Below are positions 6,417-38,991 of a stretch of DNA of 64,000 nt, one piece after another. The stretch covers positions 5,734 to 69,733 of the forward strand of contig CALRBH010000002.1 of assembly GCA_943354165.1 (NCBI GenBank). The letters run 5' to 3'. This stretch comes from Candidatus Uhrbacteria bacterium RIFOXYB12_FULL_58_10. Its GTDB lineage: Bacteria > Patescibacteriota > Patescibacteriia > UBA9934 > GWF2-40-263. The notes under the pieces were generated by a model. That model had not been told where the DNA came from. It searched no databases and was given only the letters and a program-made list of their open reading frames with translations. Position numbers and translations under genes: made by a program. Each line of letters opens with the position of its first letter. Positions within the stretch are counted from its first letter, which is position 1.

Positions 6417-6680
6417 CTAGTCGTAAACATTGTGGTCTCCGACCGCGAGCAAATATGCTTCCTGTGGTTTGGTCGATAAATACCTAAAAACGATTCGTAT
6501 CTTGTAATTGACTGAGAAGCTGAGCCGATCCTTTATGCTCCCTGAGAGTTTATGTACCTTCAATGAACGATGATTGCCTACATCCTTAAATGACTCGACT
6601 TTCTCAACAATCTCATCTTGAAGATCGGCTGGAAGATAATTATACGCCCGCACAAAGCTCGGTGAGAATGATACGAGCAT
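6417..6680 (-). CDS. parE: type II toxin, RelE/ParE superfamily
   Basis: 87-aa product from an internal Met (MLVSFSPSFVRAYNYLPADLQDEIVEKVESF ... YKIRIVFRYLSTKPQEAYLLAVGDHNVYD). C-terminal motif matches the RelE/ParE fold. 10 nt downstream of the RHH antitoxin gene. Confidence 0.7.
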   Translation of the reverse strand: MLVSFSPSFVRAYNYLPADLQDEIVEKVESFKDVGNHRSLKVHKLSGSIKDRLSFSVNYKIRIVFRYLSTKPQEAYLLAVGDHNVYD

Positions 6681-10508: not shown

Positions 10509-11456
10509 TCAGAGGGTGTGTTTATGGATATCCTTGTAAAGAACCTGCATCTCGGGAGGGAGGGCGCTCGGCAACAAATGCCGGTAGCCGTCCCCGTCCA
10601 CGATCGTAACGCCAGAGGGACCAATCGCACTCGGAACCCACGGGGCCGTCACCTTCACCTTTTTGCCGTGTGCACACAGGGAAGCTCGATGCCCCTTGCG
10701 ATACAGACGGTGTGCCTGAAGGGAGAAGGACGACACAGCCGCGTTGATCGGAGACCTGGTCCCGATGAGAAACGTCCCATCTCGCCAAGGTTCGCTCACG
10801 AGGAACATGGTGGACTTCAGATCCGTCAGCTTCTGCCATCCCATGGGCGAGTTTTCCAGCGTGTGATTGCGCACATGCTGGATAGAGGTTCCGTAGATGA
10901 GCTGCGTGTCGCGCTGAAACACGATCACGGTCTCATTCACGATCACGACCATTGGCGCAGACCACTCGTTCTCCGTCATGTGCGTGAGCTGCGGGTTGGG
11001 CAGGTCGATCCATCGATGTTTGTTCCCACAGAGGGCGAACAGACCTTTGCGCGCTTCGGACCCGGCGAACTGACGGGTCGAACGTCCGAACTCGTCACCT
11101 TTCAACCGGCCGTCAGGATCGAGCAGACCGTCGCAAAGGGCGGCGGCCACCTTATGAAACGCACACCGAGACTCGGCGAACGCCATGTCCGCGATGAGCA
11201 CATGCAGATCAGGCGCAGACAGGTCCGTGCTCACCTGCGTCACGGCAAGCGCGTTCTGCAGCAACTCCGTTGAGACCTTGTCGTTCCACGCCCGGTGCCA
11301 GGCTTCAGAAACCTTATGGGGTTCAAAGCCGAGCCTAAACGCATAGCGGTCCTTAGGCACAATACTGAACGCCGCAAGCGCGCTCGCAGCGCCGTGTGAA
11401 TTGAGCATGGCTGGAACATGTTCCAGACTTGTATTGGTAACCTGCTTGAGATTCAC
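10509..11456 (-). CDS. hypothetical protein (GC-rich)
   Basis: 315-aa ORF with coding-like composition and no recognisable domain. The opposite strand carries long antisense ORFs typical of high GC. Confidence 0.5.
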   Translation of the reverse strand: MNLKQVTNTSLEHVPAMLNSHGAASALAAFSIVPKDRYAFRLGFEPHKVSEAWHRAWNDKVSTELLQNALAVTQVSTDLSAPDLHVLIADMAFAESRCAFHKVAAALCDGLLDPDGRLKGDEFGRSTRQFAGSEARKGLFALCGNKHRWIDLPNPQLTHMTENEWSAPMVVIVNETVIVFQRDTQLIYGTSIQHVRNHTLENSPMGWQKLTDLKSTMFLVSEPWRDGTFLIGTRSPINAAVSSFSLQAHRLYRKGHRASLCAHGKKVKVTAPWVPSAIGPSGVTIVDGDGYRHLLPSALPPEMQVLYKDIHKHTL

Positions 11457-17580: not shown

Positions 17581-17657
17581 TGGTGTCCCGGGAGGGACTC
17601 GAACCCCCAACCTAGAGATTAGAACTCTCCCGCTCTATCCAGTTGAGCTACCGGGAC
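17581..17657 (-). tRNA. tRNA-Arg(TCT)
   Basis: The reverse complement gives a 77-nt cloverleaf: GTCCCGG-TA-GCTC-AACTGGATA-GAGC-G-GGAGA-GTTCTAA-TCTCT-AGGTT-GGGGG-TTCGAGT-CCCTC-CCGGGAC-A-CCA. Confidence 0.85.
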
Positions 17658-18050
17658 ACAACGAAGCTACAATAGGGAAAAATATCCGTCTCGTCCATCG
17701 ATGGAAATAAAAGACGCGTCGAGGTGGACGCGTAATTTCGCAGGAGGCGAGACGGGCAGCAGGACTCAAGTGGTGACGGGATCAGACATCGGCGTGACCT
17801 TGTCAAACACGGGTCTGAACGGACGGCACAGGTCGATGTTGAACACTTCGACCATCTTTCCGAGGAACGCATCAGGGTCTGCTGCGCGAATGACAGGATG
17901 GATCTTGTCTTTCGGGTCTGGCGGGGAACGGGAGGAAGGAGCGGACTTGGCACGAAGCTCTTCGTGCCACTCATCGAGGTGCATGTTTTCTCCAGGTGAA
18001 CGAGGTGCGCCAATACTACCCGTCCCGATGAAGCATGTCAATCCTACTGC

Positions 18051-18980
18051 CTATGTATTCTCTCCCGACTTTCCATGAAACTTCTTATGCACATCGTGCA
18101 GCGTCTTGTTAGTAATGTGTGTATAAACCTGTGTCGTAGTGATCGACGCATGTCCAAGCATCGATTGCACGGAACGAATGTCGGCTCCCGATAGCAGGAG
18201 GTCAGTCGCAAACGTGTGTCGAAGCGTATGCGGAGTCACTTTCTTCGGAATCCCCGCGGCCTTCGCATAATAAATGACCAGTCGCTCAACGGATCGTGGT
18301 GTGAGCGCCCCGACTTCGCCCCGTCCAGCCTTCGCACGGTCATGCGAAACGAACATGTAGGGCGCCGCATCTTTTCGCGCCGCAAGATATTTCTTAAGCG
18401 CCACTTTCGACGCATCCGACAGAAATACCACACGCGGCTTGTCGCCTTTTCCGCGCACGGTAAACTCATCGCGATTCAAATTCACCTGCTCAATCTTCAG
18501 CGAACAGAGTTCCGACACGCGCATCCCGCTCGCAAACAACGTCTCGAGAATCGCTTTGTCGCGCAGGCCGACGAGCCCCTCCGCATGCGTGTCCGGTGCC
18601 TTCAGAATCCGCTCCAATTCCTCGATCTCCAAAAACTCCACCGTGCGGTTGCTCTGTTTCGCAAGTTCGATCTGTTCAGAGGCGAGGGAAACGACGTCAC
18701 GCTTGGCGAGAAATTTCAAAAAAGATCGCAACGCGATGAGGTGATAGTTCTGTGTGTTCTTTTTTATGGTCTCTTCCTCACGCCCAGGAACTTCACGATT
18801 GAGAAAAAGCCGATACTTTCGGACGAGGTCTTTCGAAATCTTTCCAGGAGCGACGTTTCCGGCCCATCGCGAAAATCGTCGGAGATAAAAGTCGTAATTC
18901 TTGATCGTCCGGTTCGCCCGCCCTCGCTCGACCTCAAGATATTCAAGGAAATCCGTGATGTGTTTATCGAGGGGAGACAT
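18051..18980 (-). CDS. xerC: tyrosine recombinase XerC/XerD-like
   Basis: C-terminal catalytic motifs (RHTFATDLL, LLGHASITTTQVYTH). 309 aa from MSPLDKH. Confidence 0.85.
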   Translation of the reverse strand: MSPLDKHITDFLEYLEVERGRANRTIKNYDFYLRRFSRWAGNVAPGKISKDLVRKYRLFLNREVPGREEETIKKNTQNYHLIALRSFLKFLAKRDVVSLASEQIELAKQSNRTVEFLEIEELERILKAPDTHAEGLVGLRDKAILETLFASGMRVSELCSLKIEQVNLNRDEFTVRGKGDKPRVVFLSDASKVALKKYLAARKDAAPYMFVSHDRAKAGRGEVGALTPRSVERLVIYYAKAAGIPKKVTPHTLRHTFATDLLLSGADIRSVQSMLGHASITTTQVYTHITNKTLHDVHKKFHGKSGENT

Positions 18981-19073
18981 AGTTAGTAGATAGTAGATAG
19001 TAGATAGTAGAAAAATAGTCATAGATCAGGTTTTTTGCCCTGACTACTAACTACTTACTACTGACTACTAACT
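18981..19073. repeat. TAG-rich palindromic repeat (TAGTAGATAGTAG family), locus A
   Basis: agttagtagatagtagatagtagatagtag ... ctgactactaactacttactactgactactaact: inverted arms with stop codons in all frames. Confidence 0.7.
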
Positions 19074-23825: not shown

Positions 23826-24089
23826 ATGCTCGACATCAAGGCTAAGCAGAAAATCATTGAAAAGTTCCGCACGCATGCGTCAGACACTGGGTCTCCGCAG
23901 GTGCAGATCGCTATCCTTTCTGAGGAGGTTGCTGAGCTTACCAAGCACTTGAAGGATCACAAGAAGGACTTCTCGAGCCGCCGCGGCCTTATCAAAAAGG
24001 TCAACGAGCGCCGACGCCTTCTGAAGTATCTTGAACGCGAGGACGCGAAAGCCGCGACCGCACTCAAGAATGCTCTTGAACTGAATTAA
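23826..24089 (+). CDS. rpsO: 30S ribosomal protein S15
   Basis: 87 aa. [48 protein letters not shown] is the S15 signature region. Confidence 0.9.
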
Positions 24090-24094
24090 TACCC

Positions 24095-24125
24095 GTGACC
24101 CCGCCTCGCGCGGGGTTACGTATTT
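24095..24125 (+). terminator. intrinsic terminator (accccgcc-tcgc-gcggggt)
   Basis: Hairpin after rpsO. Confidence 0.5.
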
Positions 24126-24138
24126 CTCGGGGGAACGT

Positions 24139-24771
24139 ATGTCCACGAAGCACACAGACCAGCGCGTCGGCATTTTCATCGACACGCAGAACCTTTACTA
24201 CAGCGCCCGTTTTCTCTTCGGTCGCAAAGTAAACTTCAAGGCGATCGTAGACACGGCTGCCTCCGGACGCAAACTCATCCGTGCGATTGCCTATGTGATC
24301 GGCACGAAGACCCAGGAAGAGAAGCCATTCTTTGAAGCGCTGCAGAAAAGCGGCATCGAAATTCGCCAGAAGGAGTTGATCGAATACATGTCCGGCCAGA
24401 AGAAAGGCGATTGGGACGTGGGTCTCACCGTGGACGCCATCCGCATGCTCGATATGCTTGATGTGGTGGTAATCGTTTCCGGTGACGGAGACTACGAACC
24501 GCTCGTCGACTTCGCGCGCAGCCGCGGACGCATCGTGGAAGTGATGAGCTTCCGAGAAACGACATCGGGCAGACTCGTCGAGGCGGTCGACGGGTACATC
24601 AACCTGTCGGAAGACAAAAAGCAGTACCTCATCGGCGGGCCGAAACGCTCGTCTAAGCCTGCACAGGAAGACGACCGCAAGCGGCTTGAACGCATGAGCG
24701 AGGATCCAACCGGGATTCCGAAAGCGGAAGACGATGCGGAGGAACGCCGGAGCCGCCGATTATCTTTCTAA
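24139..24771 (+). CDS. NYN (LabA-like PIN) domain protein
   Basis: VGIFIDTQNLYYS ... VVIVSGDGDYEPLV matches NYN/LabA-type nuclease-like domains. Acidic/basic C-terminal tail. Confidence 0.7.
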   Translation: MSTKHTDQRVGIFIDTQNLYYSARFLFGRKVNFKAIVDTAASGRKLIRAIAYVIGTKTQEEKPFFEALQKSGIEIRQKELIEYMSGQKKGDWDVGLTVDAIRMLDMLDVVVIVSGDGDYEPLVDFARSRGRIVEVMSFRETTSGRLVEAVDGYINLSEDKKQYLIGGPKRSSKPAQEDDRKRLERMSEDPTGIPKAEDDAEERRSRRLSF

Positions 24772-24775
24772 GAAT

Positions 24776-26950
24776 ATGTCAGAAATCAAAAAGTTTTCGA
24801 CGCAGTGGGCAGGAAAGACACTGACCATCACCACGGGGAAATACGCCACACAAGCGAACGGTTCCTGTCTCGTGCAGTACGGTGACACCGTACTTCTTGC
24901 GACCGCTGTCATGAGCGACAGTGTGCGCGAAGGGGGATTCGACTACTTTCCATTGATGGTGGAATACGAGGAAAAAATGTACGCCGCCGGCCGCATCAAG
25001 GGCAGCCGTTTCATCAAGAAAGAAGGTCGTCCAACGGACGAAGCCGTGCTTGTTGGCCGCTACATCGACCGCGCATTGCGCCCACTCTTTGACGACCGTA
25101 TCCGTAATGATCTCCAGGTGATCGTCACCTGTCTCGCCTTCGACGGTGAGAACGATCCAGACGTCCCAGCGCTCGTTGCCGCATCCTGTGCAATTCACAT
25201 GAGCGACATTCCATGGGACGGCCCAATCGCTGACGTCCGCGTTGGCCAGATCGGCGGGGAATGGGTGTTGAACCCAAGTTATGAAGCCCGCGCCAAGTCC
25301 GCGCTCGACCTTTCCTTCGCCGGAACGAACGAAAAAATCGTCATGGTCGAAGCAGGATGTAACGAAGTTTCAGAAGACATCGTGCTCGGCGCATTTCAGT
25401 TCGGCATGAAGCACATGAAGGAAGCGATCGATCTCATCGAAGAGGTCCGTTCTGCCGTCGGAAAACCAAAGCGCGACATCTCATCACCAGTAAATGTCCG
25501 CAAGGATGAAGTCCAAACAATCGCGCGTCCGTTCATCACCGGCGCCGTCCGCGAACTGTTCTTCGGCACTCCTCAGGCAAGCAAAGTTGAGCGTGCCAAG
25601 CAGAAAAAGGAAGTGAAGAAGCGCACCGAAGCGTTCCTTCTTGAGCAAGGCGTTCTTCCAGAAGAAATAAAATTTGGAACGTCGATCGTTGAATCTGAAA
25701 TCGAAGCCGAAGTCATGCGCGCCATTCTCGTGGATGGAAAACGCGTCGACGGCCGCGGCATCACCGACATCCGCCAACTCATCTCCGAAGTCGCCATGCT
25801 TCCTCGCGTGCATGGCAGCGGACACTTCAAGCGTGGAGACACACAGGTGCTCTCCATCGTCACCCTCGGTGCCCCAGGCGACTGCCAGACGCTCGATGGC
25901 ATGGAACATGTAGGCGAAAAGCGCTACTTCCATCACTATAACTTTCCTCCATTCTCCGTCGGCGAAGTGAAGCCGATGCGCGGCCCAGGACGCCGTGAAA
26001 CAGGCCATGGAGCCCTCGCCGAAAAGGCACTCGCTCCGATGATGCCTGAGAAGGAAGCGTTCCCTTACACGATCCGGGTGGTTTCCGAAGTGCTCGGTTC
26101 CAACGGTTCCAGCTCCATGGCTTCTACCTGTGGTTCCACCATTGCCCTTATGGACGCCGGCGTACCAATCAAGGCTCCGGTTGCTGGCATTGCAATGGGA
26201 CTTGCTACGGACGGAAAGGGAAAATGGAAGGTTATTACTGATCTTCAGGACCTCGAAGACGGAAAAGGCGGCATGGACTTCAAGATTGCGGGTTCTTCCA
26301 CGGGAATCACTGCGATTCAGATGGATACCAAAACCCAGGGTCTAACGATGGACATCATCGAAACTACCCTTAAGCAGGCATTCGAAGCTCGCATACAGAT
26401 CCTGAAAGTCATGTTGGCGGCGATTCCAACGGTTCGCCCTGAACTTTCCAAGTACGCACCACGCATCATCTCGCTGCGCATCAATCCAGAACGCATCGGC
26501 GACGTGATCGGTCCAGGTGGAAAGATTATCAACGAAATCATCGATACGACAGGTGTCACTGCCATCGACATTGATGATGACGGTCTCGTCATGATCACTT
26601 CACTTAGCGCAGAGGGAGCCGAAAAAGCTCTCAGCTGGGTAAAGAACCTCACCCGCGACGTCGTCGCAGGGGAAACCTTCACCGGAAAAGTGACCCGTCT
26701 GATGACCTTCGGTGCCTTCGTGGAAATTCTGCCGAAGAAGGAAGGGCTCGTACACGTGTCGGAAATGGCTCCTTATCGCGTTGAGCAGCCAGGAGACCTC
26801 GTAAAACCAGGTCAGAGCGTACAGGTAAAGGTCATTGAGATCGATTCGATGGGCCGCATCAATCTCTCCATGAAACAGGCGCCTGGAAATGTGTATCCAG
26901 AGAATCCACCTGTTTCTACTGGATCCTCTCGCCCACCAGCTCGTCGATAA
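24776..26950 (+). CDS. pnp: polynucleotide phosphorylase
   Basis: Two RNase PH-like domains, KH (GPGGKIINEII) and S1 (GKVTRLMTFGAFVEI) domains. 724 aa from MSEIKKF. Confidence 0.95.
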   Translation: MSEIKKFSTQWAGKTLTITTGKYATQANGSCLVQYGDTVLLATAVMSDSVREGGFDYFPLMVEYEEKMYAAGRIKGSRFIKKEGRPTDEAVLVGRYIDRALRPLFDDRIRNDLQVIVTCLAFDGENDPDVPALVAASCAIHMSDIPWDGPIADVRVGQIGGEWVLNPSYEARAKSALDLSFAGTNEKIVMVEAGCNEVSEDIVLGAFQFGMKHMKEAIDLIEEVRSAVGKPKRDISSPVNVRKDEVQTIARPFITGAVRELFFGTPQASKVERAKQKKEVKKRTEAFLLEQGVLPEEIKFGTSIVESEIEAEVMRAILVDGKRVDGRGITDIRQLISEVAMLPRVHGSGHFKRGDTQVLSIVTLGAPGDCQTLDGMEHVGEKRYFHHYNFPPFSVGEVKPMRGPGRRETGHGALAEKALAPMMPEKEAFPYTIRVVSEVLGSNGSSSMASTCGSTIALMDAGVPIKAPVAGIAMGLATDGKGKWKVITDLQDLEDGKGGMDFKIAGSSTGITAIQMDTKTQGLTMDIIETTLKQAFEARIQILKVMLAAIPTVRPELSKYAPRIISLRINPERIGDVIGPGGKIINEIIDTTGVTAIDIDDDGLVMITSLSAEGAEKALSWVKNLTRDVVAGETFTGKVTRLMTFGAFVEILPKKEGLVHVSEMAPYRVEQPGDLVKPGQSVQVKVIEIDSMGRINLSMKQAPGNVYPENPPVSTGSSRPPARR

Positions 26951-26970
26951 TCAACTTGACGATAAGAGAA

Positions 26971-27016
26971 GCCGCTGAAACACTACTGCTAACGCAGAAA
27001 TTTCAGCGGTTTTTCA
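26971..27016 (+). terminator. intrinsic terminator (gccgctgaaa ... tttcagcggttttt)
   Basis: Long hairpin plus T-run 20 nt after the pnp stop. Confidence 0.6.
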
Positions 27017-27021
27017 TTTGC

Positions 27022-28296
27022 ATGGAGCGATTATCGATCCCAATGGGAAGCAGAAACAATCCTCAGAACCGCACCCGAGTTGTTTGGGTATGGGGAATAG
27101 GACTTCTTATTGTGATTGGCTGGGCGGCAGGTCACAAAATCAATACCAGCGACCATGTAACGAATACCGTTCCTGAAGATACCGCGATAGTGGCGCAATT
27201 TTCCGTAAAACGTACAGGATGGGATCAAATCAGTAAGGCACTCGATGGAGTGACGCTGATTAGCAATCGTCCGCTTTCCATTCATGAACTTCCATGGTTC
27301 GTAGAGGGTGAATTCGCCATATTCATAAGTTCGCGCGGACACCGGACCATCTCTGTTCATTCAAGCGACAAGCGATTACCGAAATCTCTGCTTGAAAGCC
27401 GAGGTATTGTCGTTCAAAAGACAGGGGACTCCTCCTATCTACTCTCCGATCGTCGCGAAGGCACGACGGGATATTCCATGCCTAATACTAGCCTAATTTC
27501 CGCACTTCACTGGCCGCCAACACGCCTCGGAACCATTGCAATAGATGGCGTGAGCCGCGCGGGAATTATTCGTATGCTTCCAACAGGGAACATGGAATGG
27601 CGGTTTCCCCATGGATCGTCGTTCAAAAAGACGACATTACCTCCTCCACCAAAGGGAACGCTTATTTTTTTGTCCACGCCGGTGTGGACGCAGGCTCCGG
27701 CCCCACTTTTTTCCTCAACAGAGAGCATTCTTTCTTCCCTAGCCACATGGGACGAGCTCACGACAGAAACCAAACAGGCGGAATATGCTGTGTCACGTTC
27801 GGATGAAATGGACATTTTTCTATTCAAGACAAAGGCAAATATTGAACACCCAGAAGAACGAATTAAACTTTTACGACTCGCTTCTGCTGTCCGATCCCCT
27901 AAGACACGAGCCTTTCAGCTTCCAGATGGAGAAACTGTCCGAGAACTTCTTACGGACCCTTCGGCTGTGACCGTAGAATCCGTAAGCATCGCCGGCGCCC
28001 AAGCGGAACGTGTCACCTCTGGAGATCGGGATGGGGAACTCCTCTCCTTAGAGCGGGAAGGGAACTGGTACTACACCAACAGCCGAGCTTGGCTTGAAGC
28101 CGCGGTTTCCGAAACGCACCCGACCGACGGGTTATGCAAAGGCTCACTCATGGGGATGGACACGGCGGTCCTTTCTTCTGCGACCGGCTCTCCACATTCC
28201 TACTGGCCCTACCCAATCACGGATCTTACAAGCACCTACTCCGCCATCGGACTCCATCAGTCCTTCACCGCCACGATTTTCACCTTTTGCAGGTAA
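27022..28296 (+). CDS. membrane-anchored hypothetical protein
   Basis: Start at MERLSIP after the pnp terminator. Single N-terminal TM (VVWVWGIGLLIVIGWAA). No domain recognised. Confidence 0.45.
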   Translation: MERLSIPMGSRNNPQNRTRVVWVWGIGLLIVIGWAAGHKINTSDHVTNTVPEDTAIVAQFSVKRTGWDQISKALDGVTLISNRPLSIHELPWFVEGEFAIFISSRGHRTISVHSSDKRLPKSLLESRGIVVQKTGDSSYLLSDRREGTTGYSMPNTSLISALHWPPTRLGTIAIDGVSRAGIIRMLPTGNMEWRFPHGSSFKKTTLPPPPKGTLIFLSTPVWTQAPAPLFSSTESILSSLATWDELTTETKQAEYAVSRSDEMDIFLFKTKANIEHPEERIKLLRLASAVRSPKTRAFQLPDGETVRELLTDPSAVTVESVSIAGAQAERVTSGDRDGELLSLEREGNWYYTNSRAWLEAAVSETHPTDGLCKGSLMGMDTAVLSSATGSPHSYWPYPITDLTSTYSAIGLHQSFTATIFTFCR

Positions 28297-28338
28297 CACC
28301 TGCCCTGAGCGGAGATCGCAACCGGAGTCGAAGGGTTA

Positions 28339-28425
28339 TGTGGATAACATGTGTGGAAAAGACACAATGTGTGGATAAGTTGTGGGTCACAACAAGAGTT
28401 CGTCAGAGGAAATATTGTATCCACA
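28339..28425. promoter_or_regulatory. DnaA-box cluster (2 perfect TGTGGATAA, 1 GTATCCACA, 2 weaker)
   Basis: Box positions: 28339-47 tgtggataa, 28352-60 tgtggaaaa, 28370-78 tgtggataa, 28381-89 tgtgggtca, 28417-25 gtatccaca. The cluster lies roughly 9 kb from dnaA. Confidence 0.55.
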
Positions 28426-28461
28426 GTGTAAATGCGCTCAATACAAAGCTATAACGACCGT

Positions 28462-28490
28462 TTGACACATTCATTTATTCAAGGTATTAT
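28462..28490 (+). promoter_or_regulatory. consensus sigma70 promoter TTGACA-N17-TATTAT
   Basis: -35 at 28462-67, 17-nt spacer, -10 at 28485-90. Both hexamers are consensus. Confidence 0.6.
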
Positions 28491-28496
28491 ATTGAG

Positions 28497-28880
28497 GTAC
28501 CTGCAACGTTCTTTCCAACACCTCCCAGACTGTGGGAGATTTCCCGAACGACCCAACCACTAAGAGCGTCCCCACTGCTCATAGTGCTCGTCCGGGAGAC
28601 ATCCCACTTCTCTACTGTTCTCTCTCGGTCAGTCCCACCATCAGCGGTTCTCAATTTCGAGAAGCAACCGGGCACGACCAAAGACTGGTAGAGAAGTACG
28701 AGTCACTTCTGAAACGGTTACCGTGAACGTTGATATATGGACGTCGAGTCGCGTGGCGCTTTACCCTGCGCCTTGAGACCCGACGTCTGTCCACCAATCT
28801 CACACCAACCCACTCAGAGGCTCATCTTACGAAAGGCCTCACCCATCTAAAACACTTTTAGGGGTCCGAGGCCTTTTTCT
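28497..28880 (+). ncRNA. candidate structured RNA, ~380 nt (unidentified; alternatively a long cis-regulatory leader of the downstream dksA-like gene)
   Basis: Bounded by a consensus promoter and a strong extended terminator hairpin (28822-28872 plus T-run). No convincing ORF. Many internal helices, for example GGACGTCG...CGACGTCT. It did not fit my mental models of RNase P, tmRNA or SRP RNA. Confidence 0.4.
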
Positions 28881-28895
28881 ATTTCAAAATACCTA

Positions 28896-29375
28896 ATGGC
28901 TCCATATTCACTCCTTCAGGTAAGGGTGGAGAAATCGATCGTCGATGGATTGCCCGAAATCGATCAGGATGATATCGTGTATCTATTGATATATTCCGCT
29001 ATGGATCAAGCATTTTCTGACAAGATGAAGTCCCTTTTGGTTGAAGAAAAGGGCCGACTGGAGCACGAACTCTCCCAATTTGCGCACCGGAACACTCGGG
29101 CAACCTCCACCACGTACGATACGGATTTCCCAAACATTGGTGATAAAGAGGATGAAAACGCCTCTGAGGTTGCACAATTTTCTGACAATTTGTCGTTAGA
29201 AGATGAGCTGGTAAAGCAATTGAGGGATGTGGAATCCGCCATGCGCCAGTTTGAAAAAGGCGTCTATGGCATCTGCAAGTACTGCAAATTGCCGATTGAT
29301 GAACGCCGTCTTATCGCCCGACCAACTTCCAGCTCCTGTATCCAGTGCAAAAAGACGCTTACTCAAGAAATGTAG
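28896..29375 (+). CDS. DksA/TraR-family C4 zinc-finger protein
   Basis: C-terminal CxxC-x17-CxxC (GICKYCKLPIDERRLIARPTSSSCIQCKK) and an acidic coiled-coil N-terminal region. Confidence 0.7.
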   Translation: MAPYSLLQVRVEKSIVDGLPEIDQDDIVYLLIYSAMDQAFSDKMKSLLVEEKGRLEHELSQFAHRNTRATSTTYDTDFPNIGDKEDENASEVAQFSDNLSLEDELVKQLRDVESAMRQFEKGVYGICKYCKLPIDERRLIARPTSSSCIQCKKTLTQEM

Positions 29376-29379
29376 CCAT

Positions 29380-29850
29380 GTGAAGCGAAATAAGGTCGTC
29401 CTTATTGGGATCGTCGGTACCATCGTGGTCGCTGGCGATCTTTTTGTTAAGCGTTTGGCCGTCACAGGATTTCCGTCAGAGGCTTCTGTTCCGGCTGGAT
29501 CTGTTTTTGCCCTGGCGCTTCATAAAAACTTCGGAATTGCCTTCGATATTCCATTCAAATTTCCTTTAGTGGTTATCGCAACAGCGATTATTGGCTCGGT
29601 TCTCATCCATCTTGCCTATAAGAATCGCCTAGATCGTCCCGATCGCACTGCAGCCGCCTTACTGATCCTCCTCGGTGGGCTCGGAAACTTCATTGACCGT
29701 GTTTTTTATGGTTTTACCGTCGATTATCTCCTAATTCTCAATCGACTGGCAATCAATCTGAGTGATCTGCTCATCCTTGGAGGTGTTGTCTGGATGCTGT
29801 TTGGAGACGAAAAACACAAACAAGTTGACACATCGGAAAAAATCGCGTAA
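29380..29850 (+). CDS. lspA: lipoprotein signal peptidase II
   Basis: Conserved GNFIDRVFYGFTVDY and four TM helices. Start assigned to in-frame GTG at 29380, because the long ATG-initiated ORF in the track overlaps the dksA-like gene. Confidence 0.7.
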   Translation: MKRNKVVLIGIVGTIVVAGDLFVKRLAVTGFPSEASVPAGSVFALALHKNFGIAFDIPFKFPLVVIATAIIGSVLIHLAYKNRLDRPDRTAAALLILLGGLGNFIDRVFYGFTVDYLLILNRLAINLSDLLILGGVVWMLFGDEKHKQVDTSEKIA

Positions 29851-29909
29851 TATACCATTATTATCAATGACCTCTCGCATATCTGCGGGAGGTCTTTTGT
29901 TTTTATCCT

Positions 29910-31418
29910 ATGTCCATACGTTCAGCGGCGATCATCGGTATCGAAGCGCATCCCGTAGACATTGAAACGGATATTTCCTTTGGAATTCATGCATTTACGC
30001 TCGTTGGACTGCCTGACGTATCCGTCCGAGAATCTAAAGAACGCATTCGAGCAGCCCTTCGACGAGTAAACCTGCCATTTCCACGCACGCGGATCACGGT
30101 AAACCTCGCTCCAGCCAACGTGAAGAAGCAGGGACCGGTGTTTGACCTTCCAATTGCCATATCGCTCTTATGTGCCAGCGGAGAACTCCCTCAAGAAGCA
30201 TTCGCCGACACCATCATTATCGGGGAATTGTCGCTTGATGGAACCATTAGACGGGTTCCAGGAGTCCTTGCCGTCGCCCTTCTTGCCCGTAAGGCAGGAA
30301 TCACATCGATCCTTGTTCCAGAAGGGAATGCTTCGGAGGCCGCGGCCGTACGCGGAATCACGGTATTTCCTGCACGCCACCTTGCAGACGTAATCGATCA
30401 TGCACGAGGGATAAGACCCATCATTCCAAGAGAAATGAGCGCGGAGGCACGTCTGATCGGTGCGGGAGTCGATCTAAACTGCGTACGCGGGCAGGAAGCG
30501 GCCAAACGCGGTCTGGAGATTGCGGCGGCTGGATCACACAATCTCCTCCTCAAAGGCCCACCAGGGACTGGAAAAACGCTCCTGGCGCGCACCTTACCGA
30601 CGATTCTTCCACCACTTAGCGAAGATGAGTCTGTCGAAGCTACGGCCATCGCCTCCGTGGCCGGAGTTTTGCCGGAAGGCGCAGGTTTACTGACAGAACG
30701 TCCTTTCCGCAGCCCACACCACAGCGCTTCGGCCGCAGCCCTCGTCGGTGGTGGAAATCCACCGCGACCAGGCGAAGTAACCTTGGCCCATCGTGGTGTC
30801 CTATTTCTTGATGAGCTGCCTGAATTCTCAAAACATTGTCTCGATCACCTACGCCAACCACTAGAAGATGGCTCAATTACGATTTCACGAGCTTCTTCGA
30901 GTATTCGCTTCCCATCGCGCTGCATGCTAGTCGCCGCCATGAACCCATGCCCGTGCGGGTTTGCCGATGATCCAGGAAACCGCTGCACCTGTGCCGAACG
31001 ATCTCGCGCCCAATATGCCCGAAAACTTTCAGGTCCGCTCTTGGATCGCTTCGACCTCGTCATCTCCGTTCCAGCCATTGAAAGCGATAAGCTCCTCGGG
31101 ACCGATCTGCCAGAAGGGTCAGAATTTGTGCGCGCCCGCGTTCTTGCAGCGCGCATGATTCAATCAGAACGCTACAAAGGAACTCCATACCCAGCAAACG
31201 CAGATCTTCCAGCCTCCGTCCTCGAACAATTCTGCCCACTCGATCCGGAATCGAAAAATCTCCTGCGTTCCGCCCTCGACGCCGGACATCTCTCCGCCAG
31301 AGGCCTCTCCCGTATACGAAAAGTGGCCCGCACGGTTGCGGACCTCTCGGGAGAATCAATTTTACAAGTACACCATGTTGCCGAAGCGCTGCGATTCCGT
31401 GGAACGGTTATTCGTTAA
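29910..31418 (+). CDS. comM: YifB/ComM family Mg-chelatase-like AAA+ ATPase
   Basis: Lon-like N-terminal domain, Walker A LLKGPPGTGKT, ChlI-type core and C-terminal domain. Confidence 0.9.
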   Translation: MSIRSAAIIGIEAHPVDIETDISFGIHAFTLVGLPDVSVRESKERIRAALRRVNLPFPRTRITVNLAPANVKKQGPVFDLPIAISLLCASGELPQEAFADTIIIGELSLDGTIRRVPGVLAVALLARKAGITSILVPEGNASEAAAVRGITVFPARHLADVIDHARGIRPIIPREMSAEARLIGAGVDLNCVRGQEAAKRGLEIAAAGSHNLLLKGPPGTGKTLLARTLPTILPPLSEDESVEATAIASVAGVLPEGAGLLTERPFRSPHHSASAAALVGGGNPPRPGEVTLAHRGVLFLDELPEFSKHCLDHLRQPLEDGSITISRASSSIRFPSRCMLVAAMNPCPCGFADDPGNRCTCAERSRAQYARKLSGPLLDRFDLVISVPAIESDKLLGTDLPEGSEFVRARVLAARMIQSERYKGTPYPANADLPASVLEQFCPLDPESKNLLRSALDAGHLSARGLSRIRKVARTVADLSGESILQVHHVAEALRFRGTVIR

Positions 31419-31491
31419 TCATTTCGAGAGGAAAAATGATCATAAGCATGCCAATATTCAAAAACGCCCCACAGATGCGGAGCGTTTATGA

Positions 31492-32805
31492 TTATCGGAC
31501 GTAGACGAGTGGATTTTGGAATTTGCCGTTCTTAATGACTTCAAAGTGTAAGTGTGTTCCTGTGGAGCGGCCTGTTGATCCGGTTTGAGCAAGCTTCTGT
31601 CCAACCGTCACAATATCCCCAACGTTCACGAACAGTTTAGAATGGTGAGCATATCGGGTCACGATCCCATTTCCGTGGTCAATTTCAACGGTATTTCCAT
31701 ACCCATTTCGCCAGCCACTATAAATAATGACACCGTCTGATGCAGCAAAACTAAAGGTCGTATAGTCACCATCAATATCTATTCCAGTGTGCTTCCATCC
31801 ATAATACTGGGTAATCACATGCCAGTCCGTCGGCCATACCCATGTCCCAGAACCGGACGTAAATCCGGAAAGAGGAGCGGTATTGGTCGTTGGTTTCCCA
31901 GTAAGAGTCTGGCTGGAAGATGGGGTCTTCACGGCAAGAGGTCGTACGACGGGAGCCGGAACGAAAGGTGGCTCACCATCAGGCAACATGAGTGTTTCAC
32001 CGATCTTTAAGTCATTCGCACTTGCCAGCTTATTAAAGGCAATGATCTTATCTGATTCTGAACCGTAATTCTTAGTGATCTTTGAAATTGTATCGCCTTT
32101 TTTCACGGTATAAAGAACGCCGTTCACTGGGACGATCTTCATATCCTGGCCTGGTTTGATCAAGCTACGAACCGTGAGATTGTTCGCCCATAAAAGTGAA
32201 GTAAGATTTAACCCAAATTTTTGAGCGATTCCATAAAGGGTATCTCCCTCGGAAACCACATAGGTTTCGATGGAAGTCCGGTCCGCTTCAGGGGTATGTC
32301 CTTCACTGATGGAAGGAGCAGACACGGCGGTTCCTCCAACGGTAGTCGTGGCATATCCGTCTCCTTCTGAAAGCGTATCGAGATGAGCTAATGGATCGAT
32401 AGCACCATCATCATATCCATAAGAAGAAGGGCTGATAGCGACAAACTGACCGGCAGAAACCACATCAATGCTCGCGGACGGATCAGTGGCAACGAGCGCA
32501 TACAACATACTATGCGTTCCAAACGTTTCCGCACGAACATCACTGCCACCAATATTTGTTGATCCGGTCATGGTAGCGATCGCAACCACAGCCACGTGAA
32601 TAGCATAACGGTTGGAGATAAAATACGTTACGCGATTCTTTGCTGGCATGAGGATGCGCCCAAGCTGTCGCTTCAAAAAGAAAACAAGACGATACAAAGG
32701 TACGCCAATGATACGAAGCAAAATCCGTCCTACAGCCTTGGCAGGAGCGATGACGGGCTTCATGAGCCGCGGAGCATTGCGCTTAACTGCCACCAGGCCG
32801 TACAA
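31492..32805 (-). CDS. LysM-domain M23 family metallopeptidase
   Basis: Two LysM repeats (YVVSEGDTLYGIAQKFG and YTVKKGDTISKITKNYG). C-terminal M23 motifs (HTGIDI, GNTVEIDHGNGIVTRYAHH, THLHFEV). Start uncertain. Confidence 0.8.
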   Translation of the reverse strand: MYGLVAVKRNAPRLMKPVIAPAKAVGRILLRIIGVPLYRLVFFLKRQLGRILMPAKNRVTYFISNRYAIHVAVVAIATMTGSTNIGGSDVRAETFGTHSMLYALVATDPSASIDVVSAGQFVAISPSSYGYDDGAIDPLAHLDTLSEGDGYATTTVGGTAVSAPSISEGHTPEADRTSIETYVVSEGDTLYGIAQKFGLNLTSLLWANNLTVRSLIKPGQDMKIVPVNGVLYTVKKGDTISKITKNYGSESDKIIAFNKLASANDLKIGETLMLPDGEPPFVPAPVVRPLAVKTPSSSQTLTGKPTTNTAPLSGFTSGSGTWVWPTDWHVITQYYGWKHTGIDIDGDYTTFSFAASDGVIIYSGWRNGYGNTVEIDHGNGIVTRYAHHSKLFVNVGDIVTVGQKLAQTGSTGRSTGTHLHFEVIKNGKFQNPLVYVR

Positions 32806-32977
32806 GACGGAAAGGAGGAAACGAATGAAAAATTGTTTGAGGGTGAGGCGTATATTGATTCTGGATATACCGCATTATCCTCTACCTGGAAAAACCTGCT
32901 TTCTCATACCTTGGTGAGCGACACCCTATCACAAAAGACCCTATTGGTCAATGTAAAAAGGCATATATATGCCTCTA

Positions 32978-33592
32978 TTAAGCCAATTCTTGATGGAAGG
33001 TTTTGTAGCCCATTCTGTGGAGAGAACAAGGGCCGTATTTCTTTATCGCCTCTCGATGCGCGAGCGTTGCATACCCTTTATGAACCTCAAATCCATACCT
33101 CGGATGGTCGATGGCGAGCTCCTGCATGAGCTGATCCCGCTCTACTTTGGCAATAATGGATGCGGCCGCGATCGATTTCACATATCGATCACCTCGAATG
33201 ATTCCGTTTTGAGGAATAAGAATCCCAGGAATAGTCCAGGCGTCTACCAAAACGTAATCGGCCAACATGATATCTTCGACGGCTCGACGCATCGCAAGAA
33301 GAGTTGCACCGCGAATCCCAAGTTCCGTAATTTCATCAACCGTCGCCCCGGCAACGGCCCAGGCAATGCTGCGCTTCTTAATAAGAGGCGCTAATTCCTC
33401 ACGGGCCCCAGCTTGAAGGAGCTTTGAGTCCTGAATACGCCCAAGTCTGGAATCAAGCGGAAGCACGACGGCACCTGCATAAACCGGCCCGGCCAGGGCT
33501 CCAGACCCCACCTCATCGACACCAACAATCATGCGGTATCCTTGCGCGAGAAGCTCGCGTTCCCGATGGAAGGTCGGAGGAGACATATCCAT
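32978..33592 (-). CDS. rnhB: ribonuclease HII
   Basis: GVDEVGSGALAGPV catalytic DE motif, plus DSK and ASIIAKV motifs. Confidence 0.9.
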   Translation of the reverse strand: MDMSPPTFHRERELLAQGYRMIVGVDEVGSGALAGPVYAGAVVLPLDSRLGRIQDSKLLQAGAREELAPLIKKRSIAWAVAGATVDEITELGIRGATLLAMRRAVEDIMLADYVLVDAWTIPGILIPQNGIIRGDRYVKSIAAASIIAKVERDQLMQELAIDHPRYGFEVHKGYATLAHREAIKKYGPCSLHRMGYKTFHQELA

Positions 33593-33703
33593 AATCTAGC
33601 ATACGATTATGGACGACTCCATCTAAGGCCCGTATATCGTTGACGTAGAGCGGCTTTTCCCGTACGCTGCGCGGGATTCTGTAAGTATTATCGACCTAAG
33701 CCT

Positions 33704-34999
33704 ATGGCAACCGCCACCGTTGAACAGCTTCCAAAGGCCGCCATTAAACTCACTATCACCATCCCGCATGATGAGCTTTTGCCTCACCTCGAGGAAGCCG
33801 CAAAGCGCATTTCGGAAAAGGTGAAAATCGATGGCTTCCGCCCAGGACACGCCTCGCTTGAGGTCGTGAAGGAAAAAGTCGGCGAGATGGCTCTTTACGA
33901 AGAGTCCCTCGAAACCGCTATTCGTACTACTTACACGCAGGCGATTCTCCAACACAATCTCAACACCGTCGGCTCGCCAAAAATCGACCTGGTAAAACTC
34001 GCGCCAGGAAACGATGTGATCTACACCGCAGAGGTTTCGCGCCTTCCGGAAGTGAAAACGCTCGGAGATTTCCACAAACTTTCCATCAAGCCACAGGCAA
34101 AGGAAGTTCCGGAACACGACATCGACATGGCCGTGAAAGATCTTCAGCGCATGCGCACGGTTGAGAATCGAAAAGAGGCTGGAGCCGTTGCCGAAGGCAC
34201 GGACAAGGTCGTCCTCTCGGTGAACATGAAGAAAGGCGGCGTCGGGGTGGAAGGCGGACAGTCGCCCAACCACGGCGTTTACTTGGCCGAGGAATACTAC
34301 ATCCCAGGCTTCAAGGAACAGCTGACCGGCATGAAGGAAGGTGACCAGAAAACCTTCACACTCGCGTTCCCTAAGGAACACGCGCTTGCTTCACTCGCAG
34401 GTCACGATGTCGATTTCGAAGTGACCATGAAGGAGATTTTCAAACTTGAAACTCCGCCGATCGATGACGCGTTCGCTTCAAAACTCGGCATGCCAGACGT
34501 TGCTTCGCTGCGAAACCGTATCAAGGAAAACATGACGGCAGAGCACGTACAGGAAGAAGCGGCACGTCAGGAACGCGAAGCTCTTGAAGCCGTCGCAAAG
34601 GTTTCCACCTTTGAAGACATCCCAGATCTTCTCATTAATGAGGAGATCAATAAGATGATCGGCGAACTCCAGGCACGCGTTGAAGAGCAGGGTGCCGACT
34701 TCATGGGGTACCTCAAGTCCATCAACAAGACCCTCGCTCAGTTGAAAATCGAATTCACCCAGCAAGCCCTCATGCGCATCAAAGTTGCCCTCGTCCTGCG
34801 CGCGATCGGCACGCAGGAGAAGATCGAGGTAACGGATGATGAACTTGATGGAGAACTCGATAAGCTCGCCGAGCAGTATGGCAAAGATCCGGAGACAAAG
34901 AAGCGCATCTACGCCCCGGACTACCGGGAGTACATGGAAAGTGTCCTCAGCAACCGAAAAGTGGTCGCGTTGCTCTTGAAAGAGATGGTAAAAGCGTAA
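33704..34999 (+). CDS. tig: trigger factor
   Basis: 431 aa with ribosome-binding N-domain (FRPGHAS motif), FKBP-like middle domain and C-terminal arm. Confidence 0.9.
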   Translation: MATATVEQLPKAAIKLTITIPHDELLPHLEEAAKRISEKVKIDGFRPGHASLEVVKEKVGEMALYEESLETAIRTTYTQAILQHNLNTVGSPKIDLVKLAPGNDVIYTAEVSRLPEVKTLGDFHKLSIKPQAKEVPEHDIDMAVKDLQRMRTVENRKEAGAVAEGTDKVVLSVNMKKGGVGVEGGQSPNHGVYLAEEYYIPGFKEQLTGMKEGDQKTFTLAFPKEHALASLAGHDVDFEVTMKEIFKLETPPIDDAFASKLGMPDVASLRNRIKENMTAEHVQEEAARQEREALEAVAKVSTFEDIPDLLINEEINKMIGELQARVEEQGADFMGYLKSINKTLAQLKIEFTQQALMRIKVALVLRAIGTQEKIEVTDDELDGELDKLAEQYGKDPETKKRIYAPDYREYMESVLSNRKVVALLLKEMVKA

Positions 35000-35000
35000 T

Positions 35001-35082
35001 AGTTAGTAGATAGTAGTAAGTAGTTAGTAGATTTTCGTCGTCAGTCGACCCTACTAACTACTATCTACTTACTACTATCTAC
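35001..35082. repeat. TAG-rich palindromic repeat, locus B
   Basis: agttagtagatagtagtaagtagttagtag ... ctactaactactatctacttactactatctac, exactly filling the tig-nfo intergenic gap. Confidence 0.7.
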
Positions 35083-35084
35083 GT

Positions 35085-35921
35085 ATGCGATTCGGTGCCC
35101 ATGTTTCAGCTGCCGGCGGCCTATGGAACGGCCCTATCAATGCCGGCGAGATCGGCTGCGAAGTGTTCCAATTCTTCAGCCGCCCTCCGCAAGGAGGCAA
35201 TCCAGCCCCGATTACTCCTGAGGTCGTGACGAAGTTCAAGGCGGCCATGAAGGAACATGGCCAGAAGGATTGCTATATCCACGCGCCCTATTTCATCAAC
35301 CTCGCTTCAGGAACCGATCGTATTCGCAAAGGTTCCCATGCCGTTCTTCGCGAAGAGTTGGAGCGTGGATCATTGTTAGGCGTACGTGGAATGATGTTTC
35401 ACCCGGGTTCAGCAAAGGATGTCGGGCAAGAAAAAGGAATCGAAATGGTGATCGAAGGACTAAACAAAATCATGGACGGATACAAAGGCTCCTGCCAGCT
35501 CCTCGTCGAAATTTCGGCGGGCGCAGGTGAGGTTATGGGCGATACGTTCGAAGAAATCGCCGCATTTTTAAAGGGTGCCGAACGCGGAAAGGAAATCGGC
35601 GTGTGTTTCGACACTCAGCACGCCTTTGCATCGGGTTACGATCTGCGCGATGTGAAAGCCGTGACCAAAACCTTCAAGGATTTCGATAAAATCGTCGGCC
35701 TTGATCGCCTTGTCGCAAGCCATTTGAACGATTCGAAGATAGAACTCGGCGGCCATAAGGACCGACACGAGAGCATTGGGAAAGGACTGCTCGGAAAGGA
35801 AGGGATTAAGGCCGTAACGCAGCACAAACCTCTTAAACACATCGACCTTCTCCTCGAAACCCCGGTCGACGAAGAACGCGCTGGCGAACTTAATCTTCTC
35901 AAGAGCTGGAGGAAGGTATGA
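35085..35921 (+). CDS. nfo: endonuclease IV (AP endonuclease family 2)
   Basis: TIM-barrel xylose-isomerase-like fold motifs (HAPYFINLAS, MMFHPGSA, LVEISAGAG, CFDTQHAFASGYD). Confidence 0.85.
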   Translation: MRFGAHVSAAGGLWNGPINAGEIGCEVFQFFSRPPQGGNPAPITPEVVTKFKAAMKEHGQKDCYIHAPYFINLASGTDRIRKGSHAVLREELERGSLLGVRGMMFHPGSAKDVGQEKGIEMVIEGLNKIMDGYKGSCQLLVEISAGAGEVMGDTFEEIAAFLKGAERGKEIGVCFDTQHAFASGYDLRDVKAVTKTFKDFDKIVGLDRLVASHLNDSKIELGGHKDRHESIGKGLLGKEGIKAVTQHKPLKHIDLLLETPVDEERAGELNLLKSWRKV

Positions 35922-36145
35922 TCGTTACCGTTCACGCGAAGCCCGGCGCGCGAGAAACGAAAGTTGGCCCATGGCTCGATGATTCGACGGTTAAAATTAG
36001 CGTGACGGCCAGGGCGGAAGGAGGGAAGGCGAATGAGGCGGTCATCAAAGCCCTCGCGGAACACCTCAACCTCGCCCCTTCGACGCTTCGACTGGTTCGC
36101 GGGGCGACGACGAGGATGAAGCAGATTGAAGTCCCTTCGAAATAG
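35918..36145 (+). CDS. DUF167 (YggU) family protein
   Basis: 75 aa. VHAKPGARETKV ... VTARAEGGKANEAVIKALAEHL is the YggU signature. 4-nt overlap with nfo. Confidence 0.7.
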   Translation: MIVTVHAKPGARETKVGPWLDDSTVKISVTARAEGGKANEAVIKALAEHLNLAPSTLRLVRGATTRMKQIEVPSK

Positions 36146-37132: not shown

Positions 37133-37193
37133 TTATCCACAGATTATCAACTGTCTTATCCTCCCTGTGCACACTTGCGGGGTTGTGGATATC
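37133..37193. promoter_or_regulatory. DnaA boxes in the rpmH-dnaA intergenic region
   Basis: Perfect ttatccaca at 37133-41. atatccaca (tgtggatat) at 37185-93. Weaker ttatcaac/ttatcctc in between. Confidence 0.55.
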
Positions 37194-38674: not shown

Positions 38675-38991
38675 AAACATCACACAGGATATTCACAGTT
38701 GTGCGTTGATTGAGCACAATTTGTCCACATGTTATTCCTTGTCTAAAAGGTGTGGAGAAGTGGAATATATCTGGGTATAAGACTCCTCAAATCATGTGGA
38801 TAGAAATAGGGAATAATTCATCCAACCATTCCATCCCCAGTCCACACACCTTTCCCCCACGGGTCTTTCCACATGAACACAAGAATTTTTCCCGTGAATT
38901 CATTCACTGAAATCGACTTGTCCACGCCATCCACACCCCTTATTGTTACTACTAGTATATCTACATATAAACTCTTACTAATAAGCCACCT
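38675..38991. promoter_or_regulatory. candidate oriC (dnaA-dnaN intergenic): degenerate DnaA boxes plus AT-rich unwinding stretch
   Basis: ttgtccaca at 38721-29, tgtggatag, tgtggagaa, and several xTCCACA variants. A 50-nt AT-rich tract (ttattgttactactagtatatctacatataaactcttactaataa) lies immediately before dnaN. Confidence 0.45.

What the first reader, a model, noticed from the sequence alone, without database searches (positions are those of the whole stretch)
28339..28425. Ectopic DnaA-box cluster about 9 kb from dnaA, immediately upstream of a consensus promoter
Two perfect TGTGGATAA boxes, one GTATCCACA and two weaker boxes lie within 87 bp, ending 37 bp before a perfect TTGACA-N17-TATTAT promoter. 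The canonical DnaA-box regions are around dnaA at 37133-37193 and 38675-38991. This may be a DnaA-titration or DnaA-reactivating locus (datA/DARS-like), a DnaA-regulated promoter, or a second origin-like element.
Basis: partly seen in the sequence, partly recalled or inferred. Interest (0 to 1): 0.55.

Follow-up and report, generated by a model that had tools for sequence, protein, structure and literature searches.

The report
DnaA-box pair phased to RNA promoter
Two perfect binding sites for the replication initiator DnaA sit at a fixed distance upstream of a strong promoter for an undescribed ~385-nt structured RNA, and the arrangement is conserved in eight Uhrbacteria-like (Candidate Phyla Radiation) genomes, which suggests the initiator controls this RNA.

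Summary
Window 28339-28425 holds two perfect TGTGGATAA boxes 31 bp apart plus three weaker boxes. Four boxes with at most 1 mismatch in 87 bp never arose in 300 simulated sequences, and only the dnaA flanks come close.

The organism is an Uhrbacteria-like member of Patescibacteria. Eight distinct genomes of this clade carry the two perfect boxes at the same syntenic spot, after pnp and an unknown gene, at exactly 31 bp. Where dnaA could be placed (three genomes), the spot lies 8-24 kb upstream of it. The -35 of a near-consensus promoter lies 92 bp (six genomes), 91 bp or 82 bp after box 2. Between the window and the other genomes the 83-bp spacer is at random-level identity.

The promoter drives a ~385-nt RNA that ends in an intrinsic terminator. 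Seven homologs show 28 compensatory base pairs, and no Rfam family matches. The true oriC is the dnaA-dnaN spacer.

Best reading: a high-affinity DnaA operator pair in fixed register with the promoter of an undescribed structured RNA. That means DnaA-controlled transcription, possibly doubling as an origin-proximal DnaA sink. A second origin and DARS are rejected. Pure titration is not excluded. The sign of regulation and the RNA's function are unknown.

The parts
28339..28347 (-). DnaA box 1, perfect (TTATCCACA on the minus strand; reads TGTGGATAA on plus)
   Evidence: Present as a perfect 9-mer in all 8 homologous loci. In the relatives it abuts or overlaps the stop codon of the upstream gene.
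28352..28360 (-). Weak box TGTGGAAAA (1 mismatch), not conserved in relatives
28370..28378 (-). DnaA box 2, perfect, same orientation as box 1, start-to-start spacing 31 bp
   Evidence: The spacing is 31 bp in 8 of 8 genomes.
28381..28389 (-). Weak box TGTGGGTCA (2 mismatches), 11 bp after box 2; not conserved
28417..28425 (+). Inverted box GTATCCACA (1 mismatch). An inverted third box also occurs in L082 (+41 from box 1), L087 (+43) and, more weakly, in L099. It is absent in L084, L083, L096 and L097.
28462..28490 (+). Sigma-70-type promoter TTGACA-17-TATTAT. The -35 starts 92 bp after the start of box 2.
   Evidence: 11 of 12. Conserved as TTGAC[ATC]-17-TA[TG]A[TC]T in all 8 loci.
28497..28882 (+). 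~385-nt structured RNA (predicted start GGTACC..., intrinsic terminator stem 28834-28874 followed by a T-run). No Rfam family matches.
   Evidence: Minimum free energy (MFE) -141 kcal/mol, z = -7.2. In the 7-sequence alignment A4, 90.8% of cells are paired against 39-52% in slid controls, and 28 pairs carry compensatory changes against 5-9. G-U pairs fit the plus strand only. Rfam is negative.
26956..28296 (+). Upstream gene (446-aa ORF; lineage-specific, no Pfam domain), last gene of the rpsO-NYN-pnp-unknown operon. It marks the syntenic position.
   Evidence: AlphaFold2 model with weak lipoprotein-like fold matches.
29001..29375 (+). DksA/TraR-type zinc-finger gene (124 aa; the listed ORF from 28896 is over-extended). 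It is the first gene after the RNA terminator and is followed by lspA and comM.
38675..38991 (+). For reference: the canonical oriC candidate in the dnaA-dnaN spacer. It has degenerate boxes, adjacent boxes at 38918-38935, and the trio-like/AT-rich stretch TACTACTAGTATATCTACATATAA at 38947-38970.
   Evidence: The motif is conserved in L101 and L102. The cumulative GC-skew minimum is at ~39-40 kb.

Best explanation
The two perfect boxes are a conserved high-affinity DnaA operator pair. They lie three helical turns apart on one face of the DNA and are held at a fixed distance from a strong sigma-70-type promoter. With the start site taken about 7 nt after the -10, the box centres are near -154 and -123. 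DnaA occupancy, which tracks the free initiator level, is inferred to modulate transcription of a ~385-nt structured RNA. Read-through of its terminator would extend that control to the dksA-like-lspA-comM genes.

The boxes do not overlap the core promoter, and no conserved proximal operator exists. The action is therefore more likely architectural or stimulatory from upstream than simple occlusion, but the sign of regulation is not determined. The site lies 8-24 kb from oriC in the three genomes where this could be measured, and it is the strongest predicted DnaA site in the region. It would therefore also be duplicated early and hold DnaA, like a B. subtilis-type DBC.

Shown here: the boxes, their non-random density, exact conservation of the geometry, the conserved promoter, the conserved RNA structure, and the canonical DNA-reading motif in this DnaA. 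Inferred: that DnaA binds here in vivo, that binding changes transcription, and what the RNA does.
For: (1) Eight distinct genomes carry two perfect direct boxes exactly 31 bp apart: the window, L082, L083, L084, L087, L096, L097 and L099. Their PNPase is ~70% identical and the flanking unknown protein 23-30% identical. The start of box 2 to the start of the -35 is 92 bp in six, 91 bp in one and 82 bp in one, the last being one helical turn shorter.

(2) The 83-bp spacer is 25-34% identical between the window and the others, which is random level, and 36-42% between subgroups, yet its length is kept. Two of the loci (L084, L087) were retrieved by an RNA sequence block alone, not by the boxes.

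(3) Of 19 perfect boxes in 168 kb of homologous loci, 17 belong to this module. In 1.23 Mb of control loci there are 13 perfect boxes and one pair within 100 bp. L101 and L102 have no perfect box within 10 kb of dnaA, oriC included.

(4) The promoter is conserved. The RNA is real: 28 compensatory pairs against 5-9 in slid controls.

(5) Domain IV of this DnaA keeps the GGRDHTT.MHA recognition motif and matches the E. coli domain IV-DNA complex 1j1v.

(6) Precedent: B. subtilis DBCs regulate neighbouring genes and also restrain initiation, and they lie near oriC (PMC2533591, PMC3245932). In P. aeruginosa, DnaA boxes precede the gidA promoter (PMC13438810).
Against: The boxes are 83 bp upstream of the -35, unusually far for a direct contact with RNA polymerase. 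In seven of the eight loci a terminator hairpin lies between the boxes and the promoter or overlaps the -35 (no obvious terminator in the window). The promoter is close to consensus and should not need an activator. No conserved array of weak boxes links the pair to the promoter. Length conservation within each subgroup may partly reflect shared ancestry; the independent comparisons are about three subgroups plus the 10-bp deletion in L083. There are no expression or binding data. Co-occurrence with the RNA could simply reflect the conserved synteny of the whole region.
Confidence: 0.55

Rival explanations
1. The pair is an origin-proximal DnaA-binding locus that acts on the initiator itself (titration, or datA-like inactivation), as B. 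subtilis DBCs or E. coli datA do. It has no role in transcription of the neighbouring RNA, and the promoter is merely adjacent.
For: These are the strongest predicted DnaA sites within tens of kb. The position on the dnaA side, 8-24 kb from oriC, holds in the three genomes where it could be measured. The window cluster (87 bp, 4 boxes, 2 TTATCCACA) equals the DnaA-bound thdF-jag cluster of B. subtilis in Table 2 of PMC2533591. Okumura et al. predict such clusters in bacteria lacking SeqA/Hda. Origin-proximal enrichment of boxes favours titration (PMC12371093).
Against: Only two boxes are conserved, so capacity is minimal. No IHF-like site is apparent. The strict box-to-promoter distance across diverged spacers has no explanation under this model. 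The distance to dnaA varies threefold.
Confidence: 0.25
2. DnaA bound at the boxes acts on transcription arriving from the upstream pnp operon. It serves as a roadblock or insulator at the 3' end of that operon, protecting the RNA promoter from read-through or occlusion.
For: Box 1 abuts or overlaps the stop codon of the upstream gene in 7 of 8 loci. The operon terminator lies after the boxes, and in L096, L097 and L099 it contains the -35 itself. From my own knowledge, DnaA-mediated blocks to transcription have been described in E. coli.
Against: Intrinsic terminators are already present in seven of the eight loci (no obvious one in the window). A roadblock role does not obviously require a 31-bp pair or a fixed 92-bp distance. 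No data bear on it directly.
Confidence: 0.1
3. The cluster is a second replication origin, or a distal part of a split oriC.
For: The DnaA boxes here are stronger than those in the dnaA flanks.
Against: No AT-rich unwinding element or trio repeat lies next to the boxes. The GC-skew minimum is at 39-40 kb. A conserved box+trio+AT-rich motif sits immediately upstream of dnaN in three genomes. The distance to dnaA varies from 8 to 24 kb.
Confidence: 0.03
4. The boxes are a DARS-type DnaA-reactivating sequence.
For: L082 and L087 have an inverted perfect box 1-3 bp after box 2, so three boxes of mixed orientation occur there.
Against: The DARS core is defined by three boxes with box I opposite to II and III at fixed spacing (PMC5742627). 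Here the inverted box is absent in 4 of 8 genomes and sits at +41, +43 or +78 in the others.
Confidence: 0.04

Closest known systems
Bacillus subtilis DnaA-box clusters outside oriC (sda, ywlC, yydA, thdF-jag, gcp-ydiF; Ishikawa 2007 PMC2533591; Okumura 2012 PMC3245932)
   Same: Both are intergenic, near oriC and contain TTATCCACA boxes. Both lie next to promoters whose genes DnaA regulates, and both have a dual role as a DnaA sink. The window cluster is equivalent in size and box count to the thdF-jag cluster.
   Different: Only two boxes are conserved here, with exact 31-bp spacing and an exact distance to the promoter. The target is a structured non-coding RNA. The host is a CPR bacterium. 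No binding or phenotype data exist.
E. coli datA and DARS1/DARS2 (review PMC5742627)
   Same: All are non-coding chromosomal DnaA-box clusters whose box orientation and spacing matter. datA boxes share one orientation, and DARS1 lies in a promoter region (uvrB; from my own knowledge).
   Different: datA needs at least 3 boxes plus an IHF site. DARS needs three boxes with one inverted. Neither arrangement is conserved here, and Hda/IHF/Fis partners are unknown in this lineage.
DnaA boxes preceding the gidA promoter in P. aeruginosa oriCII (PMC13438810), and classical DnaA-controlled promoters (dnaA, mioC, nrdAB; review PMC8203912)
   Same: DnaA boxes upstream of a promoter close to the origin, with the initiator acting as a transcription factor.
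   Different: In the classical cases the boxes overlap or adjoin the core promoter. Here they are centred near -123 and -154. The review lists no RNA-gene targets.
Fis sites upstream of rrnB P1 (analogy from my own knowledge, not tested)
   Same: A strong stable-RNA promoter with several upstream protein sites spaced about three helical turns apart on one face of the helix.
   Different: The protein is different. The proximal Fis site at -71 contacts RNA polymerase, and no equivalent proximal DnaA site exists here.

Membership tests
oriC-external DnaA-box cluster (B. subtilis DBC type) | Dense intergenic cluster of about 4 or more boxes with at most 1 mismatch, including high-affinity TTATCCACA | tested here: met
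   The window has 4 boxes in 87 bp, 2 of them perfect, comparable to thdF-jag in Table 2 of PMC2533591. Caveat: the relatives keep only 2-3 boxes.
oriC-external DnaA-box cluster (B. subtilis DBC type) | Location near oriC | tested here: met
   8.9 kb from dnaA in the window, ~8.3 kb in the closest relative's contig, ~24 kb in the L097/L101 contig.
oriC-external DnaA-box cluster (B. subtilis DBC type) | Stable DnaA binding in vivo, and early initiation when the cluster is deleted | not testable with these tools
   Needs ChIP or EMSA and genetics, and the lineage is uncultivated.
DnaA-regulated promoter | DnaA boxes conserved together with a promoter | tested here: met
   In 8 of 8 loci the box pair is followed by TTGACN-17-TAnnnT, at 92 bp (six), 91 bp or 82 bp.
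DnaA-regulated promoter | Boxes overlapping or adjoining the core promoter (classical repression geometry) | tested here: not met
   An 83-bp spacer separates them, and no box with 2 or fewer mismatches lies in or just after the core promoter in any locus.
DnaA-regulated promoter | DnaA-dependent change in transcript level | not testable with these tools
   No expression data are accessible.
DARS | Core of three boxes, box I opposite to II and III, with fixed spacing | tested here: not met
   Only two direct boxes are conserved. The inverted box is absent in 4 of 8 loci and at a variable distance in the rest. Definition from PMC5742627.
datA | At least three same-orientation essential boxes plus an IHF-binding site between them | tested here: not met
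   Two conserved boxes only. No WATCAANNNNTTR match was seen by eye in the spacers (a weak test).
oriC / second origin | Boxes adjacent to an AT-rich unwinding element or DnaA-trio; GC-skew switch | tested here: not met
   No such element lies at 28.3-28.5 kb. It is present at 38947-38970. The skew minimum is at 39-40 kb.
Any Rfam 15 RNA family (for the transcript) | Covariance-model match | tested here: not met
   No hit at E<=10 on 28250-29000, none at gathering score on the window, and none at E<=1 on L096, L097 or L099. ARAGORN finds no tmRNA.

The most novel reading that the evidence does not exclude
The module is a replication-status sensor specific to Uhrbacteria-like CPR bacteria. The initiator DnaA, through a stereospecifically placed operator pair, controls a previously undescribed class of large (~385 nt) structured RNA. 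This would be the first non-coding RNA gene known to be under direct DnaA control, and the RNA may in turn act on cell-cycle or envelope functions (neighbouring genes dksA-like, lspA, comM) or on DnaA itself.
Probability: 0.3. Interest if true: 0.75.

Novelty: new variant of a known kind. Interest (0 to 1): 0.6.

Why it matters
Almost nothing is known about gene regulation or replication control in Candidate Phyla Radiation bacteria, which have tiny genomes and few recognisable regulators. This is a sharply defined, conserved cis-regulatory module: two boxes 31 bp apart, 92 bp from a promoter. It can be tested in vitro with recombinant DnaA without cultivating the organism. It links the universal replication initiator to an unclassified structured RNA, and so gives both a candidate new RNA family and a candidate new output of DnaA.

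Tried and rejected
Those loci served only as a 1.23-Mb control.

2. Rfam at gathering and permissive thresholds, ARAGORN, and inspection for RNase P P4 motifs, the tmRNA acceptor/T-arm and SRP motifs gave no match. The 'CAGAACCCG' resemblance to RNase P lies in a local hairpin, not a long-range P4.

3. nhmmer with the RNA profile found no further copy in any of about 100 loci.

4. Pairing of the RNA with the dnaA translation-initiation region (RNAduplex) was no better than with random windows. This was a crude test.

5. A search of the spacer for an array of weak boxes in 11-bp register found no conserved array.

6. A possible antiterminator hairpin shares an arm with the RNA terminator. Single-sequence folds mostly favour the full terminator, so the question of leader versus stand-alone RNA is unresolved.

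8. The weak box pairs at 2631/2686 and 18085/18118 are within the chance range.

Full report
**Observation.** The sequence at 28339-28425 is as described. TGTGGATAA occurs at 28339 and 28370, both perfect and in the same orientation. TGTGGAAAA is at 28352 (1 mismatch), TGTGGGTCA at 28381 (2 mismatches), and an inverted GTATCCACA at 28417. A TTGACA-17-TATTAT promoter follows at 28462-28490, scoring 11 of 12.

The 64-kb window has only three perfect boxes: two here and one upstream of dnaA. It has 22 boxes with at most 1 mismatch against 9.1 expected. In 300 Markov simulations no 100-bp window held more than two such boxes, and none held two perfect ones.

**Context and organism.** The cluster lies between a lineage-specific 446-aa ORF (the last gene of an rpsO-NYN-pnp operon) and a DksA/TraR-type zinc-finger gene, lspA and comM. 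Further on are an M23 peptidase, rnhB, tig, rnpA/rpmH, dnaA (37229) and dnaN.

Source names of homologs place the organism among Candidatus Uhrbacteria / Patescibacteria. This holds both for the unknown protein and for DnaA, whose homologs are about 70% identical. The window comes from an 89-kb MAG contig.

**Conservation.** Homologous loci came from two routes. One was protein look-ups of the unknown gene (L082, L083, L096, L097/L098, L099/L100). The other was a metagenome scan with a 19-base block of the downstream RNA (L084, L087). Synteny is conserved.

All eight distinct genomes carry two perfect TGTGGATAA boxes exactly 31 bp apart. Box 1 abuts or even supplies the stop codon of the upstream gene in the relatives. 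The -35 of a TTGAC[ATC]-17-TA[TG]A[TC]T promoter starts 92 bp after box 2 in six genomes, 91 bp in one and 82 bp in one.

The 83-bp spacer is 25-34% identical between the window and the others, and 36-42% between subgroups. Length is therefore constrained far more than sequence (not at all beyond chance between the window and the others), and the one large indel equals a helical turn.

The weaker boxes are not conserved. An inverted third box occurs in only some genomes, at varying positions. Of 19 perfect boxes in 168 kb of these loci, 17 are in the module. In 1.23 Mb of unrelated control loci there are 13 perfect boxes and a single close pair.

**What the promoter drives.** Downstream lies a ~385-nt segment with no conserved ORF that ends in an intrinsic terminator. 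The window copy folds with z = -7.2. An alignment of seven homologs gives 72 consensus pairs, of which 28 carry compensatory changes. In that alignment 90.8% of cells are paired, against 39-52% when partners are slid, and slid controls give only 5-9 compensatory pairs. Invariant G-U pairs fit only the plus strand.

No Rfam 15 family matches, even at permissive thresholds, in four genomes, and ARAGORN sees no tmRNA. The dksA-like gene really starts at 29001 (124 aa, as in all homologs).

In the window and the L082 group, a conserved TTGCnn-17-TAnnnT element follows the RNA terminator. This suggests a separate promoter, but the element is unclear in the L096 group. Whether the RNA is a stand-alone gene or a long leader therefore remains open.

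**Where the origin is.** Cumulative GC skew bottoms out at 39-40 kb. The dnaA-dnaN spacer holds many degenerate boxes. It ends with two adjacent boxes, a C-run, a TAC/TAG trio-like repeat and AT-rich DNA (38918-38970). The same motif is found in two relatives. Those relatives have no perfect box within 10 kb of dnaA, so the ectopic pair is the strongest predicted DnaA site in the region.

The module lies 8.9 kb from dnaA in the window, about 8.3 kb in the closest relative's contig and about 24 kb in the L097/L101 contig. It is always on the same side and in the same orientation. This orientation is head-on to forks leaving oriC.

**Does this DnaA read the canonical box?** Domain IV keeps the GGRDHTT.MHA recognition segment. 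It matches the E. coli domain IV-DNA complex 1j1v and B. subtilis DnaA.

**Interpretation.** The exact 31-bp pair and the fixed distance to the promoter across diverged spacers argue that boxes and promoter work as one stereospecific unit. That means DnaA-dependent control of the RNA promoter.

The boxes are centred near -123 and -154. No proximal operator or linking array of weak boxes is conserved. I therefore favour an upstream architectural or stimulatory role over occlusion, but the sign is not determined.

A motif TTGAAYACAA lies 31-32 bp after box 2 in six genomes. It may bind a further factor; this is inference only.

The same site would also hold DnaA close to the origin. This is the dual role documented for B. 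subtilis DBCs (PMC2533591, PMC3245932).

A titration-only role is possible but does not explain the geometry and offers only two sites. DARS and datA definitions (PMC5742627) are not met. A second origin is rejected. A roadblock role against read-through from the pnp operon is a minor alternative, suggested by the boxes sitting between the stop codon and the terminator.

**Novelty.** DnaA-box clusters near oriC that regulate neighbours are known. What is new is the strict two-box geometry, the CPR host and the target: a large structured RNA absent from Rfam. A review of DnaA as a transcription factor lists no RNA-gene targets (PMC8203912). No paper in the library links Patescibacteria, DnaA boxes and such an RNA.

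Noticed in passing
window 38918-38970; L101 and L102 dnaA-dnaN spacers: A conserved oriC core lies just upstream of dnaN. It consists of two adjacent degenerate boxes (..ATCCACGCCATCCACA), CCCC, then a TAC/TAG trio-like repeat and AT-rich DNA. Perfect boxes are absent from oriC in two relatives.
   Followed up: partly
window 28896-29375 and 29227-29850: The mechanical ORFs are over-extended. The DksA/TraR-like gene most likely starts at ATG 29001 (124 aa, as in all homologs), and lspA near 29380.
   Followed up: yes
[not shown]
   Followed up: partly
L096 ~11370-11398; L097 ~6408-6448; L099 ~11328-11357: The intrinsic terminator of the upstream operon is embedded in the RNA promoter. The -35 TTGACC lies in the hairpin and the T-run lies in the promoter spacer, an extreme compaction of signals.
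   Followed up: no
L038 (Candidatus Berkelbacteria) 2115-2190: A different CPR lineage shows a classical repression layout: TGTGGATAA, then 37 bp on, TTGACTTATCCACA...TATAAT, with a perfect box overlapping the -35/spacer of a consensus promoter downstream of comM.
   Followed up: no
window 24000-36000 relative to oriC at ~38.9 kb: The strongly promoted RNA gene and the pnp...comM and tig genes are transcribed towards oriC, head-on to the leftward fork. The orientation is conserved in relatives. DnaA control might limit head-on conflicts right after initiation (speculation).
   Followed up: no
RNA 3' domain, window ~28815-28880 and homologs: A hairpin with a CGAAA-type loop shares its 3' arm with the 5' arm of the terminator in all seven RNAs. 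This could be an antiterminator switch or a Y-shaped terminator.
   Followed up: partly
83-bp spacer, 31-32 bp after box 2 in L082, L084, L087, L096, L097 and L099: A conserved motif TTGAAYACAA (TCGAACACA in L099) lies at the same 31-bp period as the two boxes. It has 3-4 mismatches to a DnaA box, is absent from the window and L083, and has no known binding partner.
   Followed up: no
window 17581-19022: A tyrosine integrase gene (18051-19022, minus strand) lies next to tRNA-Arg(tct), possibly the edge of an integrated element. Relatives also carry an integrase upstream of the rpsO-pnp block.
   Followed up: no
window 2631-2694 and 18085-18126: Two pairs of one-mismatch boxes occur here. Pairs of this kind arise by chance in 11% of simulated windows.
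   Followed up: yes
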